53,646 nucleotides of DNA from a virus. Its lineage: Duplodnaviria; Caudoviricetes. Below the pieces are notes generated by a model. That model worked only from the letters and a program-made list of their open reading frames with translations. It had not been told where the DNA came from and did no database searches. Of this stretch, positions 12,992 through 50,242 are shown one piece after another. Where the stretch lies: positions 1 through 53,646 of IMG/VR virus record IMGVR_UViG_3300046707_000046; one strand, 5' to 3'. Every line of letters begins with the position of its first letter. Within the stretch, counting starts at the first letter, position 1. A program made the position numbers and the translations under genes.

Positions 12992-13699
12992 CTAAGAAGC
13001 TACCAGCGGATTCCAGCCCTTGTCAAGAGCCATTCTCACCTGAAGCCCGATGAACTCCCCGAAGATGGGAGGCACCGCCTCTGAGCAGCCAGCTTCCGTC
13101 ATCCACGGCGTGCCCATCAGGGCGTTCCTCACGTCCACAGGAACGCCGTAACCGTGCTTCTTGTAGAACCACCCTGGTACACCATGACCCAGCACTGGCA
13201 TGGCAGCGCGCTTGTGGGCCTCGTGCAGGGGCACCCAGATGGGCATGTTGGACTCGAACAGGCGACGACGGTACAACGCGAAGTCCGTACCCTGGTACTC
13301 GATGTGCATGTCGAACATGCAACCGCATAGCTCAACGGGATCACGGAGCCTAGCTCCGGGCACGTTCTCGATGACGTAGGGCTTGCCCGTGCGCCTGAGT
13401 GCGTACTGGACTCCGGGCACAAGGTTAGGGTGCTTGTGCTTGTTGACCTTGACGACCGCCTGGCTGGCATGCTGGCAGGGCGGGCTGGCAATAATAAGGT
13501 CAGCATCATTCCCAAACTTCTTGAGCCCTTCCTGCCAGTCCATCTGATGCCCCTCGAAGGAATCAGGGTAGCGCTTCAGGGCAGACTCCGACGTGTCAAT
13601 CCCTATCACACGCCGGAACCCCGCCCGGAAGTACCCGAGTGAGAGGGCACCCTGACCGCAGAACAGGTCAAGCACCGTTAGCTGGTCGTTAGTCTTCAC
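12992..13699 (-). CDS. DNA cytosine-5 methyltransferase-like (short phage type)
   Basis: LDLFCG.G, ASPPCQ, YVIENVPGA, CGCMF, EAVPP. Confidence 0.85.
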   Translation of the reverse strand: MKTNDQLTVLDLFCGQGALSLGYFRAGFRRVIGIDTSESALKRYPDSFEGHQMDWQEGLKKFGNDADLIIASPPCQHASQAVVKVNKHKHPNLVPGVQYALRRTGKPYVIENVPGARLRDPVELCGCMFDMHIEYQGTDFALYRRRLFESNMPIWVPLHEAHKRAAMPVLGHGVPGWFYKKHGYGVPVDVRNALMGTPWMTEAGCSEAVPPIFGEFIGLQVRMALDKGWNPLVAS

Positions 13700-13712: not shown

Positions 13713-13950
13713 TTAGACTATGTGGACGTAATGGCCCCTGCCGAGCCATCTGCGCCCGCCGTTCTCGTAACTCCCGTAGTGCTGGCGTATCTGAAACGGG
13801 GCACCGCTGGCCGTGCGGGCGGGCGTTGATACGGGATACGGTCAGGCCGTGATGATCCTTGACCGCGTTCTTAACGGCACTCAGGAGGGTGACCATCTCC
13901 TGAAGATCGGCTACCGACAGGCCCTTACTAGGGTTGATCTGGGTACCCAT
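13713..13950 (-). pseudogene. Small gene frameshifted by the 4-bp duplication GCCC-GCCC (13817-13824)
   Basis: After INAR the annotated frame switches to rare codons (TTA, CGA, CTA), while the +1 frame reads TASGAPFQIRQHYGSYENGGRRWLGRGHYVHIV* with normal GC3. Confidence 0.55.
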
Positions 13951-14021
13951 ACCTTTTCATCTCCCGTTTTTGTGGTAACCACAGTGTTCAGCACCCCTCC
14001 AGGCCGAGGAAGATGTGATTG

Positions 14022-14097: not shown

Positions 14098-14448
14098 CTA
14101 GGCGGCGGGCCACCTCTCCCACTGGCCGTTTCGCCTTACCTCTATCAGGAGGTTAGCCGGGTCAAGACTGCGCTCCACCCTCTCGGAGGGGTCAGGGGGC
14201 ACGTCAAGAACCCTCTTGTTAAGCCATATCCTGAACTTCGGGGTCTCTGACATGCGTCGGAAGGCCGCCCTCTTGTTCTCTAGCTGAGAGCGGCTATCCC
14301 GTGCCTCGCCTACCGCCCCGGACTCAGGGTGAATGATACGTACCCCGGTGTCCCTCTTGTTCTGGTTTGACCCGCCCTTGCCCCCGGCACGGAAGGTTTG
14401 CACGATGCAATCCTTGATCGTGACCGAGAACAAGCGCGTCCGTGGCAT
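14098..14448 (-). CDS. Peptide chain release factor (RF-1 domain, ArfB/PrfH-like) with GGQ replaced by GGS
   Basis: FRAGGKGGSNQNKRDTGVRIIH..SG......SRSQLENKRAAF. Confidence 0.9.
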   Translation of the reverse strand: MPRTRLFSVTIKDCIVQTFRAGGKGGSNQNKRDTGVRIIHPESGAVGEARDSRSQLENKRAAFRRMSETPKFRIWLNKRVLDVPPDPSERVERSLDPANLLIEVRRNGQWERWPAA

Positions 14449-14454
14449 GGCTGG

Positions 14455-14634
14455 TTACTTCTCCTTCTTGGCGGGGCACTTGCTCTTTCCGCAGCGGTGC
14501 GGGCCGGCGTGATCCTCATCCTGTCCGCAGCGGTGCAGCGTGCCCTTGTCTTTGAGGCCGTACTTGTGGCCCGTCCGGGGATACACCCGCCCGTCGAACC
14601 ACCTGAAATTACAGTTCTTTGTACCGAATGACAT
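14455..14634 (-). CDS. Small Cys/His-rich protein
   Basis: MSFGTKNC...HRC...H.G.HRC. Confidence 0.55.
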   Translation of the reverse strand: MSFGTKNCNFRWFDGRVYPRTGHKYGLKDKGTLHRCGQDEDHAGPHRCGKSKCPAKKEK

Positions 14635-14635
14635 C

Positions 14636-14986
14636 TTAGACGCACCCTCCGCTCTTGATGTACCTGATGGCACCCTCAAGAATCTCCACAGCATGGTCCT
14701 TGCCCTTACTGGACTCCCTGCATATCCAGCCTAGCAGGTGCAGGTTGCACTTCTTGCATAGTAGGCCCCGCCAGCAGACCTTGCAACCCCTCTGGCAATG
14801 GTCGTGATCGTGATCAAATGCGAAGTTTGTCTTGCCGTGAGGTGAGCGGCAGATCGCGCAGCATCCACCTTGCTTAGCTAGCTGCCGGTCGTAGTCTTCC
14901 TGGGTGATGCCGTGACGAGCCAGGGTAGCACGACGGGAAGCCGCCCGTCTCTTAGCAGCGGCTTCCCTCTGAATCCTAGTCGGCAC
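14636..14986 (-). CDS. Recombination endonuclease VII
   Basis: HGIT..DY......QGG.CAIC.......DHDH.....RGLLC..CN. Confidence 0.9.
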   Translation of the reverse strand: MPTRIQREAAAKRRAASRRATLARHGITQEDYDRQLAKQGGCCAICRSPHGKTNFAFDHDHDHCQRGCKVCWRGLLCKKCNLHLLGWICRESSKGKDHAVEILEGAIRYIKSGGCV

Positions 14987-15920
14987 CGAGGACCGATCCT
15001 CCCGTCTTGTGCGGGCAATCGCACTCACCTGGCAGGTTGTTCTGCCGGCAGGCCCAGTGCAGGAAGTCCCGGCGGGCAGCCAGGAGCTTCCATGACCTGG
15101 CATAGTCCGGGCTTGCCTGGATCATGTCGTTAAGCTTGTTAGCTTCCAGGCAGGAGCCGCAAAGTGTCATCGCTTTATCCAGTTGTCGCCAGGAATCGGA
15201 CCTCGGATGTTGCGCCCGGCTATGTCCCTCGGGTAGTGCGTCCTGATGCACAGCACGCAAGCTATCCTGATGTGCCGCGTGAACGAGCGGTACGTGGTAT
15301 CGAAGGTCTTACCGCAAAGTTCACACTTGCCGCTGCTGCTCATGGCCGGTTAGCCCTCCGGGATAGCCGGGCCTGACGGTTCTTAGCCCGGCGCTTAGCT
15401 ATGACAGCCTTCGGAACGGTTCCCTCATAGAGGGGCCGACCGAGCAGCCCGTTGTCAACCGACCGGCTGAGGATAAAGAGCATCCCCACCGCTGCTGGCA
15501 GGTCTGCCAGGGCTAGGACGGCCTCGGCAGACGGCCCGGCGTCCTGCGGCATCTCTTGCATCTTTCACCTCCTGAGCACACCAGGAGCTTGCCGTCCATC
15601 TTGTAGGTGTGAGGGTTGAACTTCTTGTGCTCGCACTTGGCGACACGACCCCTGCCCTTGCAGTCAGGGCACTTGATGCCCGCTGGGGTAAGGCCCATCT
15701 GGGGTACCTCCTTCTTTCATCTACCCCCCACGGTAGCCGGCGCGGGGGTTCCCGTCAAGCCCTAGTTAGCACGGATTGCCTCTACGCGGGGGCACTTCCT
15801 GCACTCCCGGTAGATAGCTACTATCCCGTTACGCTTGATAGTCCGCTTGCGCCAGGAGTGACGACAGGTCTCGCGCGTGGGGCCATCTCCACGTCCTGAG
15901 CATATCTTCGGCGTGAGCAT
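14976..15920 (-). other. Cluster of about five small Cys-rich hypothetical ORFs
   Basis: Tightly coupled short ORFs with CxxC motifs (e.g. 15166-15343, 15340-15561, 15513-15698). Confidence 0.55.
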
Positions 15921-16314
15921 CCCTGCCCGGTCCCCCTCTGTTACCTTCGGTGTAGATGCGGAAGGGAATCTCTGCCTCCCACGCACGGGTGACGCAATCG
16001 GTCGCTCCCGGTGATCCGTCATGAATAAACGCCACGCACAGATCAGGCTTAGCGTTGCTAACCATGTTCTGATTGCGAATGAACCCGGCAGGCTTACCGT
16101 ACACTTCCCACCACGCCGGCCAGCATTCAGCTTCGGGAGTGAATCGTGTAAGCGACCACTCGTAGGAGAACTGATCGACTCCCTTGGGTTGTCTCGTCCT
16201 GGGGTCGTAGCCGCAGACAAGCGTGAAGGGTTCCGCCGCGTATAGATCATTCAGGACTTCATGAACGAAGTTAGCATCCATCCAGGTGCGGCTGCCTGTT
16301 ACCAGAATCTTCAT
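15829..16314 (-). CDS. SLOG-family (YspA/DUF2493-like) protein
   Basis: KILVTGSR.W, KG.D, W..YGK.AG.IRN..MV, CVAF....SPG. Confidence 0.85.
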   Translation of the reverse strand: MKILVTGSRTWMDANFVHEVLNDLYAAEPFTLVCGYDPRTRQPKGVDQFSYEWSLTRFTPEAECWPAWWEVYGKPAGFIRNQNMVSNAKPDLCVAFIHDGSPGATDCVTRAWEAEIPFRIYTEGNRGGPGRDAHAEDMLRTWRWPHARDLSSLLAQADYQA

Positions 16315-16316
16315 CT

Positions 16317-16789
16317 CTACCACCATCTGTAAGGGCACTTCTTGCACTGATGCCTAAACAAGTGGTCCCATCTGCGCTTGCACACATGCAGATGATCCGC
16401 CTTGCCGTCGTCAGCCTTGCTCGGGCACGTTCTCATCTCTGGCCTCCCTTTGCCAGGCCCGCTGCTCGCGGGCTCTCTGACCACGACGCCCGATCTTCTT
16501 AGGGCCGGGGCGTCTTCCTTGCTTGATACCGGGGTCATGACCACGGCAGCACCACGTGAGGTCATGGTCACTGCGGGCCTTGCCAAGCATCCTGGTCACT
16601 GCCCAGTTCCTCCCAATCTCCCAGGTAGACCGTTCTCTTAACTACCCTGCCAGGGGAGCTTAGCGCGTCCAGCACCCCGTTGGCCAGTCTCTCGTCTTCG
16701 TAGGTTACGGTGGGCGGGGAAAGTACGGGCTCGAAGATCAGCCCGTACTCAACCCTGACCGCCATCTCCACCCACTCGATCTCAGGCAC
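16317..16789 (-). other. Three small hypothetical ORFs (16317-16436, 16411-16599, 16568-16789)
   Basis: Overlapping start/stop arrangement. Confidence 0.5.
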
Positions 16790-49493: not shown

Positions 49494-49515
49494 TGCTGTC
49501 CATTCGTCAGGAGGG

Positions 49516-49588
49516 CTCCGGTTGCTGGGCTCGAACCAGCGACCCTCCGCTTAACGGGCGGACGCTCTGCCGACTGAGCTAAACCGGA
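49516..49588 (-). tRNA. tRNA-Asn(GTT), C at position 33
   Basis: Cloverleaf TCCGGTT/AACCGGA, loop CCGTTAA, TTCGAGC, G73. Confidence 0.9.
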
Positions 49589-49646
49589 CTGTTTTGCAAA
49601 GGCTTTCACTAGTCTCAGGATGACACCTACCCTTGCGGAGACCTCG

Positions 49647-49719
49647 CTCCCCCGGGTGGACTCGAACCACCAGTCTCCGGTTCCAGAGACCGGCGGCCTG
49701 CCAATTGGCCTACGGGGGA
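49647..49719 (-). tRNA. tRNA-Gln(CTG)
   Basis: TCCCCCG/CGGGGGA, loop CTCTGGA, TTCGAGT. Confidence 0.92.
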
Positions 49720-49786
49720 AACGATCTTTATGCAGTCTTGCTGGGCCGAGGGTAAAACTGAACCATGCCAGATATCACCCCCGCCG

Positions 49787-49860
49787 TGGAGCCGGCAGGA
49801 CTTGAACCTGCGACCGACTGGTTGCAAACCAGTTGCACTATCCAACTGTGCTACGGCCCC
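49787..49860 (-). tRNA. tRNA-Ala(TGC)
   Basis: GGGGCCG/CGGCTCC with G3:U70, loop TTTGCAA. Confidence 0.95.
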
Positions 49861-49883
49861 ATATGGGTAAGCAAATAAGCAGC

Positions 49884-50062
49884 GGGCGAGGGGATTAATA
49901 GAATAGCACCGGCTGGCCTCGCCGGTGCCTAATCGGGTGCCCCTTCATTTGGTCCTGCCGGACATCAGCCGTCAGGCCCGCCTTAATTGGGGAGGGTGAC
50001 CAGACTTTCACTGGCTTATGCAAGGTCCACGGCCTTGCGCTTCGTTTACTTCCGCCTCGCCC
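49884..50062 (-). ncRNA. Unknown structured RNA between tRNA-fMet and tRNA-Ala
   Basis: Terminal stem GGGCGAGG/CCTCGCCC enclosing hairpins GCAAGG/CCTTGC, GCCAG/CTGGT and GCACCGGC/GCCGGTGC. Confidence 0.55.
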
Positions 50063-50066
50063 TCAG

Positions 50067-50140
50067 TAGCGGTGGTGGGATTTGAACCCACGGCCTACGG
50101 GTTATGAGCCCGCCGAGCTACCGAACTGCTCCACACCGCG
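50067..50140 (-). tRNA. Initiator tRNA-fMet(CAT)
   Basis: C1:U72 mismatch, GGG/CCC anticodon stem, loop CTCATAA. Confidence 0.93.
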
Positions 50141-50171
50141 TCGTTTTCATTCTTCGTAATACCTAACTAAG

Positions 50172-50242
50172 AGCCCGACACCGGACTCGAACCGATATAG
50201 CCAGCTTGGAAGGCTGGCGTCCTGCCATTGAACGAGTCGGGC
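50172..50242 (-). tRNA. tRNA-Gly(TCC)
   Basis: GCCCGAC/GTCGGGC, loop CTTCCAA, U73. Confidence 0.93.

What the first reader, a model, noticed from the sequence alone, without database searches (positions are those of the whole stretch)
14098..14448. Stand-alone release-factor domain with GGQ changed to GGS
Seen: codons GGC GGG TCA AAC CAG AAC give GKGGSNQNKRDTGVR, where class-I release factors, ArfB and PrfH have GGQ. The rest of the domain (R.IH..SG, SRSQ..NK..A) is intact and there is no stop-codon recognition domain. Known: GGQ positions the hydrolytic water and its Gln is methylated by PrmC; small substitutions can keep partial activity. CAG/CAA to TCA needs at least two base changes, so a single read error is unlikely. 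Inference: a methylation-independent rescue factor, or a catalytically damped A-site blocker.
Basis: partly seen in the sequence, partly recalled or inferred. Interest (0 to 1): 0.72.

Follow-up and report, generated by a model that had tools for sequence, protein, structure and literature searches.

The report
Phage mini release factor with GGS
An uncultured soil phage carries a small, intact copy of the peptide-releasing domain of bacterial release factors in which the normally invariant glutamine of the GGQ motif is a serine, a rare but recurring natural variant whose activity has never been tested.

Summary
Window 14098-14448 (minus strand) encodes a 116-aa protein with GGKGGSNQNK; the Ser codon is TCA. 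It is a Pfam RF-1 domain and a member of phage family PHROG 3122. It has no codon-reading domain and no ArfB-type tail. The window is a complete 53.6-kb phage genome with terminal repeats.

The Ser is not an error or a singleton. Contigs from four other soil and rhizosphere runs, each from a different study, cover the codon unchanged. A second allele (I74V) also has GGS.

Every other conserved position is kept: 1 deviation in 34 conserved columns. Among 271 family proteins the position is Q in 255, S in 14 and T in 2, and nothing else. The two glycines are invariant. A single origin of all non-Q forms is rejected (AU p 0.007). A shared origin with the two nearest GGS proteins is not rejected.

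My best reading (about 0.5) is a still-functional, methylation-independent variant of an untested phage peptidyl-tRNA-hydrolase-like factor. A damped PTC binder and a near-neutral change remain open.

The family is catalogued, so this is a new variant of a known kind. Earlier notes of this scan describe other phage mini release-factor domains on other DNA, some lacking GGQ entirely.

The parts
14098..14448 (-). Gene for the 116-aa stand-alone release-factor domain protein (ATG at 14448-14446, stop at 14100-14098)
   Evidence: ORF list. PF00472 at 48.8 bits. PHROG 3122 at E 2.4e-39. Same protein on 4 contigs, plus an I74V allele.
14245..14424 (-). RF-1 / GGQ-type domain core (residues 9-68): strand, catalytic loop, two strands, start of the long helix
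   Evidence: Pfam match. Same place found by the genome search. AF2 model with pLDDT 87. Residues 5-85 superpose on domain 3 of mtRF1 (Z 8.0), PrfH (7.4) and RF1 (7.3).
14371..14376 (-). Codons of Gly25 and Gly26 (GGC GGG), the two glycines of the motif
   Evidence: Invariant in 271 of 271 family proteins, including all 16 without Gln.
14368..14370 (-). Ser27 codon TCA in place of the Gln codon of GGQ
   Evidence: Unchanged in contigs of 4 of 4 other runs. The family column is Q 255, S 14, T 2.
14101..14241 (-). Family-specific C-terminal module (residues 70-116): two helices and a beta-hairpin, with conserved F72, W75, E103, G108 and W110. It is not an ArfB-like basic tail.
   Evidence: AF2 secondary structure. 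Conserved columns. No structural match beyond residue 85. By my own count of the printed sequence its net charge is about +2.
14461..14466 (-). Possible Shine-Dalgarno AAGGAG, 12 nt before the ATG, inside the end of the upstream ORF (whose stop TAA is at 14455-14457)
   Evidence: Read from the sequence. Not tested.

Best explanation
This is a real, expressed-looking early-region gene of an uncultured phage, probably one that infects actinobacteria. It encodes a member of the phage-specific mini release-factor family (PHROG 3122): release-factor domain 3 plus a family-specific C-terminal helix-hairpin module.

The Gln-to-Ser change in the catalytic loop is a fixed, selectively tolerated substitution. 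It is one instance of a recurring Ser/Thr replacement in this family.

The most likely mechanism is inferred, not shown. The protein would still insert its Gly-Gly-X loop into the peptidyl-transferase centre of a ribosome, or a large subunit, that carries peptidyl-tRNA, and promote ester hydrolysis. It would use the glycine-dependent backbone geometry and the main-chain NH of residue 27, with the small hydroxyl side chain replacing the Gln side chain. It therefore cannot be, and need not be, N5-methylated by PrmC. How the family finds its ribosomal substrate without codon-reading domains or an ArfB tail is unknown. I assign that role to the conserved C-terminal module.
For: SHOWN:
- The gene is intact and sits in an operon-like array.
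- It deviates from the family consensus at only 1 of 34 columns conserved at 80% or more. The median for the 255 GGQ members is 2.
- G25 and G26 are invariant in 271 of 271 proteins, including all 16 non-Gln members.
- The only replacements seen are Ser (14) and Thr (2). None of the residues one base change away from a Gln codon (K, E, P, R, L, H) occurs.
- Ser persists over divergence. P0012 and P0026 are 73% identical and both GGS. P0184 and P0274 are both GGS. P0171, P0272 and P0273 all carry GGSGKD. Seven representatives of 50%-identity clusters carry the GGSGKDTSN loop.
- A single origin of all 16 is rejected (delta lnL 107.9, p-AU 0.007). The careful tree needs 12 changes, well-supported branches force at least 4, and 0 of 200 bootstrap trees show one origin.
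- The natural population keeps TCA while varying elsewhere in the gene by two third-position changes and one conservative change.
- An engineered GGS mutant of RF1 has been crystallised in the A site of the 70S ribosome (title of PDB 9MTR).

FROM PAPERS (passages read):
- The main-chain amide of the Gln is the group implicated in catalysis. Q-to-P abolishes release, Q-to-E keeps reasonable activity, and the side chain packs around and selects the water (PMC4691834).
- A 2026 paper summarises the 2025 model. In it the release factor reorients the A76 2'-OH, and the methylated Gln mainly helps binding and positioning (PMC13672221, discussion passage).
Against: - No activity, binding or expression data exist for any member of this family. 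My searches found none.
- The introduction of PMC5995542 states that GGQ-to-GGA mutations inhibit release, so loss of the side chain can be costly in RF1 and RF2.
- The isolated GGQ domain of YaeJ neither binds ribosomes nor hydrolyses (PMC3950681), and this family has no known anchoring element.
- Conservation of GG and of the rest of the domain is also what a pure PTC binder would need.
- All 37 IMG/VR loci with the same loop context and 14 of 14 full-length prophage-like copies in GTDB genomes (that search pattern favoured Q) are GGQ. Ser is therefore the exception, and Gln is clearly preferred.
- The trees rest on about 114 columns and are poorly resolved. A common origin of the window's GGS with P0012 and P0026 is not rejected (p-AU 0.195).
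- picks candidates by shared words with a GGS query and may over-sample GGS relatives.
Confidence: 0.5

Rival explanations
1. Catalytically damped or dead PTC/A-site binder. The Ser variant still docks in the peptidyl-transferase centre but hydrolyses slowly or not at all. It would act as a brake or protector of stalled, or of all, host ribosomes rather than as a rescue enzyme.
For: The Gln is otherwise universally conserved in release factors. GGA mutants are reported to inhibit release (PMC5995542 introduction). Catalytically impaired release-factor mutants stay bound to ribosomes (same paper). Earlier notes of this scan describe other phage mini release-factor domains that have lost GGQ altogether, so non-catalytic use of this fold by phages is plausible. 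A binder would also keep the conserved fold and the GG motif.
Against: In this family the loop is otherwise untouched. Replacements are restricted to Ser and Thr rather than spread over many residues, which is not what release of catalytic constraint predicts. The GG pair, whose unusual backbone geometry is tied to catalysis in the literature (PMC4691834 passage), is invariant in all 16 non-Gln members. Neither point is decisive.
Confidence: 0.25
2. Near-neutral or slightly deleterious drift in an accessory gene. The factor is dispensable or works well below its maximum, so Q-to-S was fixed by chance or hitch-hiking in this phage lineage and carries no special functional meaning.
For: GGS is rare: 0 of 37 other IMG/VR loci with this loop context, and 0 matches to the GGKGG[S-like]NQNK pattern in the three collections, with own and near records hidden. 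The window lineage's nearest non-self relatives are only 65% identical or less, so its age is unknown. The gene has no conserved neighbour in 45 loci, as expected for an accessory gene.
Against: Reaching TCA from CAG or CAA needs 2-3 base changes through Pro, stop or similar intermediates. The replacement is always Ser or Thr, in several lineages. Ser is kept across 27% divergence and more. The rest of the protein is more consensus-like than the median GGQ member.
Confidence: 0.2
3. Sequencing or assembly error, or a decaying pseudogene.
For: Nothing beyond the rarity of the motif.
Against: Contigs of 4 of 4 other runs, from 4 studies, carry the same codon. Two alleles on five contigs carry it. 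The frame is intact, and only 1 of 34 conserved columns deviates.
Confidence: 0.02

Closest known systems
Domain 3 (GGQ / RF-1 domain, PF00472) of bacterial and mitochondrial class I release factors RF1, RF2 and mtRF1
   Same: Best sequence and fold match. The family profile hits mtRF1 at E 2e-17 and RF1 at 1e-15. Residues 5-85 superpose with Z 7.3-8.0. The loop context G-x-G-G-X, RxxH, SG and RSQxxNK is shared.
   Different: There are no domains 1, 2 or 4 and no PxT or SPF codon reader. NCBIfam scores are 40-47 bits against cut-offs of 370-423. Gln is replaced by Ser. The protein has its own C-terminal helix-hairpin module.
ArfB (YaeJ) / ICT1 codon-independent rescue factors
   Same: A small stand-alone GGQ-type domain that works without reading a codon.
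   Different: Only a weak match: profile E 3e-4 over 25 residues, NF006718 at 18 bits against a cut-off of 100, and fold Z 5.0. There is no inserted helix and no basic C-terminal tail. That tail is what binds ArfB to the empty mRNA channel and is required for activity (PMC3950681).
PrfH (with RtcB2) and mtRF-R / C12orf65 (with MTRES1)
   Same: Reduced release-factor-like proteins that act on damaged or split ribosomes. Their matches are intermediate: PrfH at E 1e-13 and Z 7.4, C12orf65 at E 7e-8 and Z 6.5.
   Different: TIGR03072 scores 43 bits against a cut-off of 167. The phage has no RtcB. No conserved partner gene appears in 45 loci. Both known factors keep GGQ.
Engineered RF1 GGS mutant on the Thermus thermophilus 70S ribosome (PDB 9MTR; a GGD mutant is 9MTQ)
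   Same: The same tripeptide, GGS, in the same domain, placed in the A site and PTC. This is a ready structural frame for the natural variant (entry titles).
   Different: It is a laboratory mutant of a full-length release factor. The paper (Aleksandrova et al. 2025, Science) is not held here, so I do not know its activity.
Phage mini release-factor domains, including those that lack GGQ, noted earlier in this scan
   Same: Phage-encoded stand-alone copies of release-factor domain 3, functionally untested. The tblastn also lists 16 Acinetobacter phage records.
   Different: Several of those notes describe shorter proteins (76-83 aa) in which the whole GGQ loop is replaced. Here the loop is intact except for Q-to-S, and the protein carries an extra C-terminal module. 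I did not examine those proteins myself.

Membership tests
Pfam RF-1 (PF00472) domain | Score over the gathering threshold of the RF-1 model | tested here: met
   48.8 bits against 35, E 7.8e-13, residues 9-68. 47.9 bits on the DNA.
PHROG 3122 (phage 'RF-1 domain peptide chain release factor') | Full-length match to the family profile | tested here: met
   E 2.4e-39, residues 3-110 on profile positions 21-127 of 136. 52-62% identity to annotated mycobacteriophage proteins.
Release-factor peptidyl-hydrolase domains in general | Gly-Gly-Gln tripeptide in the catalytic loop | tested here: not met
   The loop reads GGS, with codon TCA. The two Gly are present.
Class I release factors RF1 / RF2 | Codon-recognition domains (PCRF, PxT or SPF motif) and a full-length equivalog score | tested here: not met
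   The protein is 116 aa. Only domain-3 positions match. TIGR00020 scores 46.8 against 370, NF001859 43.8 against 400, TIGR00019 40.1 against 423.
ArfB / YaeJ / ICT1 | Equivalog score, and a basic C-terminal tail that enters the mRNA channel | tested here: not met
   NF006718 scores 18.1 bits against 100, with no stretch passing. The C-terminal 47 residues are predicted as two helices and a hairpin, with net charge about +2 by my own count.
ArfB-like function (peptidyl-tRNA hydrolysis on stalled ribosomes) | Hydrolytic release of nascent chains from non-stop complexes | not testable with these tools
   This needs biochemistry. No published test of this phage family was found.
PrfH | Equivalog score and an adjacent RtcB | tested here: not met
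   TIGR03072 scores 43.2 against 166.65. PF01139 (RtcB) has 0 matches in the complete phage genome.
PrmC substrate (N5-methyl-Gln) | A Gln at the GGQ position to accept the methyl group | tested here: not met
   Residue 27 is Ser. The phage has no PrmC-like gene; the only hit is the SAM-binding region of its DNA methylase, at 14.2 bits against a cut-off of 199.

The most novel reading that the evidence does not exclude
Ser or Thr at the GGQ position is an adaptive replacement, acquired more than once, that yields the first natural release-factor-type domains that stay catalytic without the Gln. That would make phage mini release factors independent of host PrmC and SAM, or insensitive to something that targets the Gln. 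These proteins would then be a natural test of what the Gln side chain really contributes to peptide release. A bolder and less likely version is that the hydroxyl itself acts as the acceptor.
Probability: 0.3. Interest if true: 0.72.

Novelty: new variant of a known kind. Interest (0 to 1): 0.5.

Why it matters
The Gln of GGQ is described as universally conserved and is methylated in all domains of life, yet its chemical role is still debated. The debate covers the backbone NH against the side chain, water selection, and the 2025 proposal that the tRNA 2'-OH is the nucleophile.

Here a phage protein family keeps Gly-Gly and the whole domain but swaps Gln for Ser or Thr, and for nothing else, in more than one lineage. 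That gives ready-made natural variants for that question. It also points to a large phage family of about 115-aa release-factor domains, annotated as 'release factor' in more than 200 mycobacteriophage genomes, whose function and mode of ribosome binding have not been tested.

If the GGS form is active, database rules that treat GGQ as obligatory would need softening. If it is inactive, phages would be using PTC-binding decoys.

Tried and rejected
- **Sequencing error:** rejected (contigs only, no raw reads were available for these runs).
- **RNA evidence:** The look-up of sequencing runs listed no RNA holder, so nothing can be said about expression.
- **Conserved partner gene:** all-against-all comparison of same-strand ORFs within 2.5 kb in 45 loci found none. 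The two largest extra clusters were overlapping alternative-frame ORFs of GC-rich DNA. A SLOG/DprA-like gene lies upstream in only 5 loci.
- **PrfH-RtcB and phage PrmC ideas:** no RtcB and no PrmC in the phage.
- **More GGS DNA:** the pattern GGKGG[S/T/C/W/R]NQNK gave 0 matches in viral, genome and metagenome collections (own and near records are hidden). I therefore could not compare Ser codons between lineages or compute dN/dS.
- **The search for related loci in IMG/VR:** gave only 3 distant loci.
- **Phylogeny caveats:**
  - The first AU tests were run against a 'quick' tree whose free search was worse than the constrained ones, so they are uninformative (p 0.237, 0.926, 0.677).
  - The AU test on all 271 rows did not finish in two 300-s calls.
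  - The final tests used 63 of the 271 rows: the 16 non-Gln rows, the 4 nearest GGQ rows of each, and 15 random rows. Loop columns (window residues 24-35) were removed.
  - A script error was corrected.
- **Literature:**
  - All 'GGS' hits I opened were DOIs of the journal Genes Genet. Syst., linkers, or the name of an R package.
  - Shaw & Green 2007, Seit-Nebi 2001 and Aleksandrova 2025 are not held. What I say about the first two beyond quoted passages is recalled.
  - The plant PrfB3 example is recalled and not used as evidence.
  - Supplementary files were not consulted.
- **Fold searches:** they did not match residues 86-116 to anything. I did not fold that part alone, so I make no claim of a new fold.
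- **First submission:** one search was returned for a missing confidence field. This report is the same text with that field added.

Full report
**What is there**

The window is a complete virus record of 53,646 bp with direct terminal repeats. Its GC content is 59.4%. It carries a WhiB-family gene, which points to an actinobacterial host, although its portal protein is at most 31% identical to that of any cultured phage.

On the minus strand, 14098-14448 is a 116-aa ORF. It starts 6 nt after the stop of the upstream ORF and has AAGGAG 12 nt before the ATG. Its neighbours are early or replication genes: a DnaB-like helicase, a SLOG/YspA-like protein, endonuclease VII, a small Cys/His-rich ORF, then the release-factor-like gene, a small ORF, a C5 DNA methylase and WhiB.

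SRSQLENKRAA. Ser27 is encoded by TCA.

**Is the Ser real?**

Yes. The exact protein is on record on 4 contigs, and a second allele (I74V) on a 53,833-bp contig also has GGS.

Twenty-four soil or rhizosphere runs hold at least part of the stretch. I laid the contigs of four of them, from four different studies and excluding the possible source run. All four cover 14368-14370 without any other letter. They differ at 14229 (I74V), and at 14257 and 14269, which by position are the third bases of codons 64 and 60. These are assembled contigs, not raw reads.

In 18 long ORFs of this phage 92% of Gln codons are CAG, so the likely ancestral codon differs from TCA at all three positions.

**What family?**

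- Pfam RF-1 is met at 48.8 bits against a cut-off of 35, over residues 9-68.
- PHROG 3122 matches end to end at E 2.4e-39.
- tblastn finds the family in 252 phage records, 205 of them Mycobacterium phages, where it is annotated 'RF-1 peptide chain release factor'. The best identity is 62%.
- A profile of 121 members finds RF1 and mtRF1 (E 1e-15 to 2e-17), PrfH (1e-13), C12orf65 (7e-8) and ArfB only marginally (3e-4) among solved structures.
- The NCBIfam equivalogs for RF1, RF2, PrfH and ArfB are all far below cut-off.
- The AF2 model (pLDDT 87) superposes residues 5-85 on release-factor domain 3: mtRF1 Z 8.0, PrfH 7.4, RF1 7.3, mtRF-R 6.5, YaeJ 5.0 (see also Foldseek).
- Residues 86-116, together with the helix from residue 70, form a family-conserved helix-helix-hairpin module (F72, W75, E103, G108, W110) with no structural match.

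So this is neither a class I release factor, ArfB nor PrfH. It is a phage-specific mini release-factor family. The ESM Atlas also places it in virus-only RF-1 clusters. Full-length copies occur as apparent prophage genes in genomes of several phyla, for example Mycolicibacterium palauense and Cellulomonas denverensis. No conserved neighbour was found in 45 loci, and the phage has no RtcB or PrmC.

**How unusual is GGS within the family?**

- Four of 4 cultured-phage homologs aligned have GGQ.
- All 37 other IMG/VR loci with the GG-X-NQNKRDTG context have Q.
- All 14 full-length copies in GTDB genomes have Q, although one of the three search patterns there required Q.
- The specific GGKGG[S-like]NQNK pattern has no match in any of the three collections, with own and near records hidden.
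- In the big protein sets Ser is not unique. In an alignment of 271 family proteins the column is Q 255, S 14, T 2. These are the 120 best word-based hits, the second allele, and the 150 best representatives of 50%-identity clusters from an exhaustive profile search.
- The less biased sample is the 150 representatives, with 12 non-Gln members (10 S, 2 T).
- The Ser forms come in two flavours. Some have an otherwise normal loop: GGKGGSNQNK in the window, P0012, P0026, P0149 and P0184, and GGPGGSKQNK in P0170. The others form a subfamily with a remodelled loop, GGxGGSGKDTSNTG (seven representatives).
- No other residue occurs, including none reachable from CAA or CAG by a single base change. Gly25 and Gly26 are invariant in all 271.
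- The window protein deviates from the consensus at 1 of 34 conserved columns, while the median GGQ member deviates at 2.
- Ser is inherited over real divergence: P0012 and P0026 at 73% identity, P0184 and P0274, and P0171, P0272 and P0273.

**One origin or several?**

The alignment has only about 114 usable columns once the loop is removed, so resolution is poor.

- A quick tree of all 271 rows needs 12 changes, and well-supported branches force at least 5.
- A careful tree of a 63-row subset needs 12 changes. Well-supported branches force at least 4, none of 200 bootstrap trees has a single origin, and three non-Gln rows have well-supported GGQ sisters.
- The AU test rejects all 16 as one clade (delta lnL 107.9, p 0.007).
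- It does not reject a clade of the window pair with P0012 and P0026 (delta lnL 21.9, p 0.195).
- Earlier AU tests against a poorly searched tree were uninformative.

I therefore claim more than one origin of Ser/Thr in the family, but not that the window's Ser arose independently of its nearest GGS relatives.

**Mechanism**

Passages read in PMC4691834 make four points:
- The two glycines adopt a backbone conformation that no other residue allows.
- The main-chain amide of the Gln is the group positioned for catalysis.
- Q-to-P abolishes release and Q-to-E keeps reasonable activity.
- The side chain packs the pocket and selects water, and methylation improves this.

A 2026 paper summarises the 2025 structural work. 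In that model release-factor binding reorients the A76 2'-OH as the nucleophile, with the methylated Gln helping affinity and positioning (PMC13672221, discussion passage). A GGS mutant of RF1 has been crystallised in the A site (PDB 9MTR title), but I could not read its paper.

Against an easy reading, the introduction of PMC5995542 lists GGA among mutations that inhibit release. The isolated GGQ domain of YaeJ neither binds ribosomes nor hydrolyses (PMC3950681).

Putting this together with the conservation pattern, I think the most likely reading is a still-active, methylation-independent variant (about 0.5). A damped PTC binder (0.25) and a near-neutral change in an accessory gene (0.2) are the rivals, and error or pseudogene is at about 0.02. 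What the whole family does in infection, and how it reaches the ribosome, are inferred only. Possibilities are rescue of ribosomes stalled by mRNA decay or by host nucleases, or action on split 50S complexes.

**Novelty**

The family is catalogued and widely annotated, so the gene itself is not new. I found no paper on a phage-encoded GGQ-domain protein or on natural GGS or GGT variants in the searches. The one paper that mentions the mycobacteriophage 'RF-1 domain' gene only notes it beside tRNA arrays (PMC5966550, passages). A 2019 survey states that the widespread bacterial versions retain the catalytic Gln (PMC6514570, passage).

Earlier notes of this scan on other genomes describe phage mini release-factor domains, several of which have lost GGQ entirely, and a 114-aa GGQ domain next to a macrodomain. 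I did not test those notes.

The restricted, recurrent Q-to-S/T replacement is the new element here, so this is a new variant of a known kind, of moderate interest.

Noticed in passing
window 13998-13999: Contigs of two other runs (X2, X4) match up to this point, about 100 bp downstream of the release-factor-like gene, and then continue with unrelated sequence. The same loose-end consensus appears in both runs. This looks like a mosaic junction between phage relatives. Small indels also occur at 13815 (4 bases absent in all four runs), 13953, 13966 and 14062.
   Followed up: no
window 49514-50242 (-): A cluster of five tRNA genes: Asn-GTT, Gln-CTG, Ala-TGC, Met-CAT and Gly-TCC. A published survey notes RF-1-domain genes beside tRNA arrays in mycobacterial elements (PMC5966550), but here the two are 35 kb apart.
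   Followed up: partly
window 14455-14694 (-): The small ORF directly upstream of the release-factor-like gene is rich in Cys and His (it probably starts at the internal MSFGTKNC...). It has no Pfam or PHROG match and may be a small zinc-binding protein.
   Followed up: no
window 15829-16347 (-): A SLOG/YspA-like ('DprA-like', 'GTP-binding domain' PHROG 289) gene lies upstream. A homolog lies about 1.7 kb upstream of the release-factor-like gene in 5 of 45 loci, including Mycobacterium phage Nanosmite.
   Followed up: partly
proteins P0131, P0171, P0173, P0181, P0189, P0205, P0236 (not in the window): A subfamily of the same phage family has a fully remodelled catalytic loop, GGxGGSGKDTSN(T/N)G. 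Several members carry long Cys-rich C-terminal extensions (up to 187 aa). It may be a functionally distinct branch.
   Followed up: partly
L059 (genome contigs): A full-length family member (38% identity, GGQ) sits on a 3.2-kb contig binned to a Candidatus Iainarchaeum archaeon MAG. This is either a mis-binned phage contig or a virus of a DPANN archaeon carrying a bacterial-type release-factor domain.
   Followed up: no
window 12992-13699 (-): A C5 cytosine DNA methylase (PPCQ motif) also gives weak hits to small SAM-methyltransferase models, including a 14-bit hit to the PrmC model. I judged it an ordinary DNA methylase, not a release-factor methylase.
   Followed up: yes
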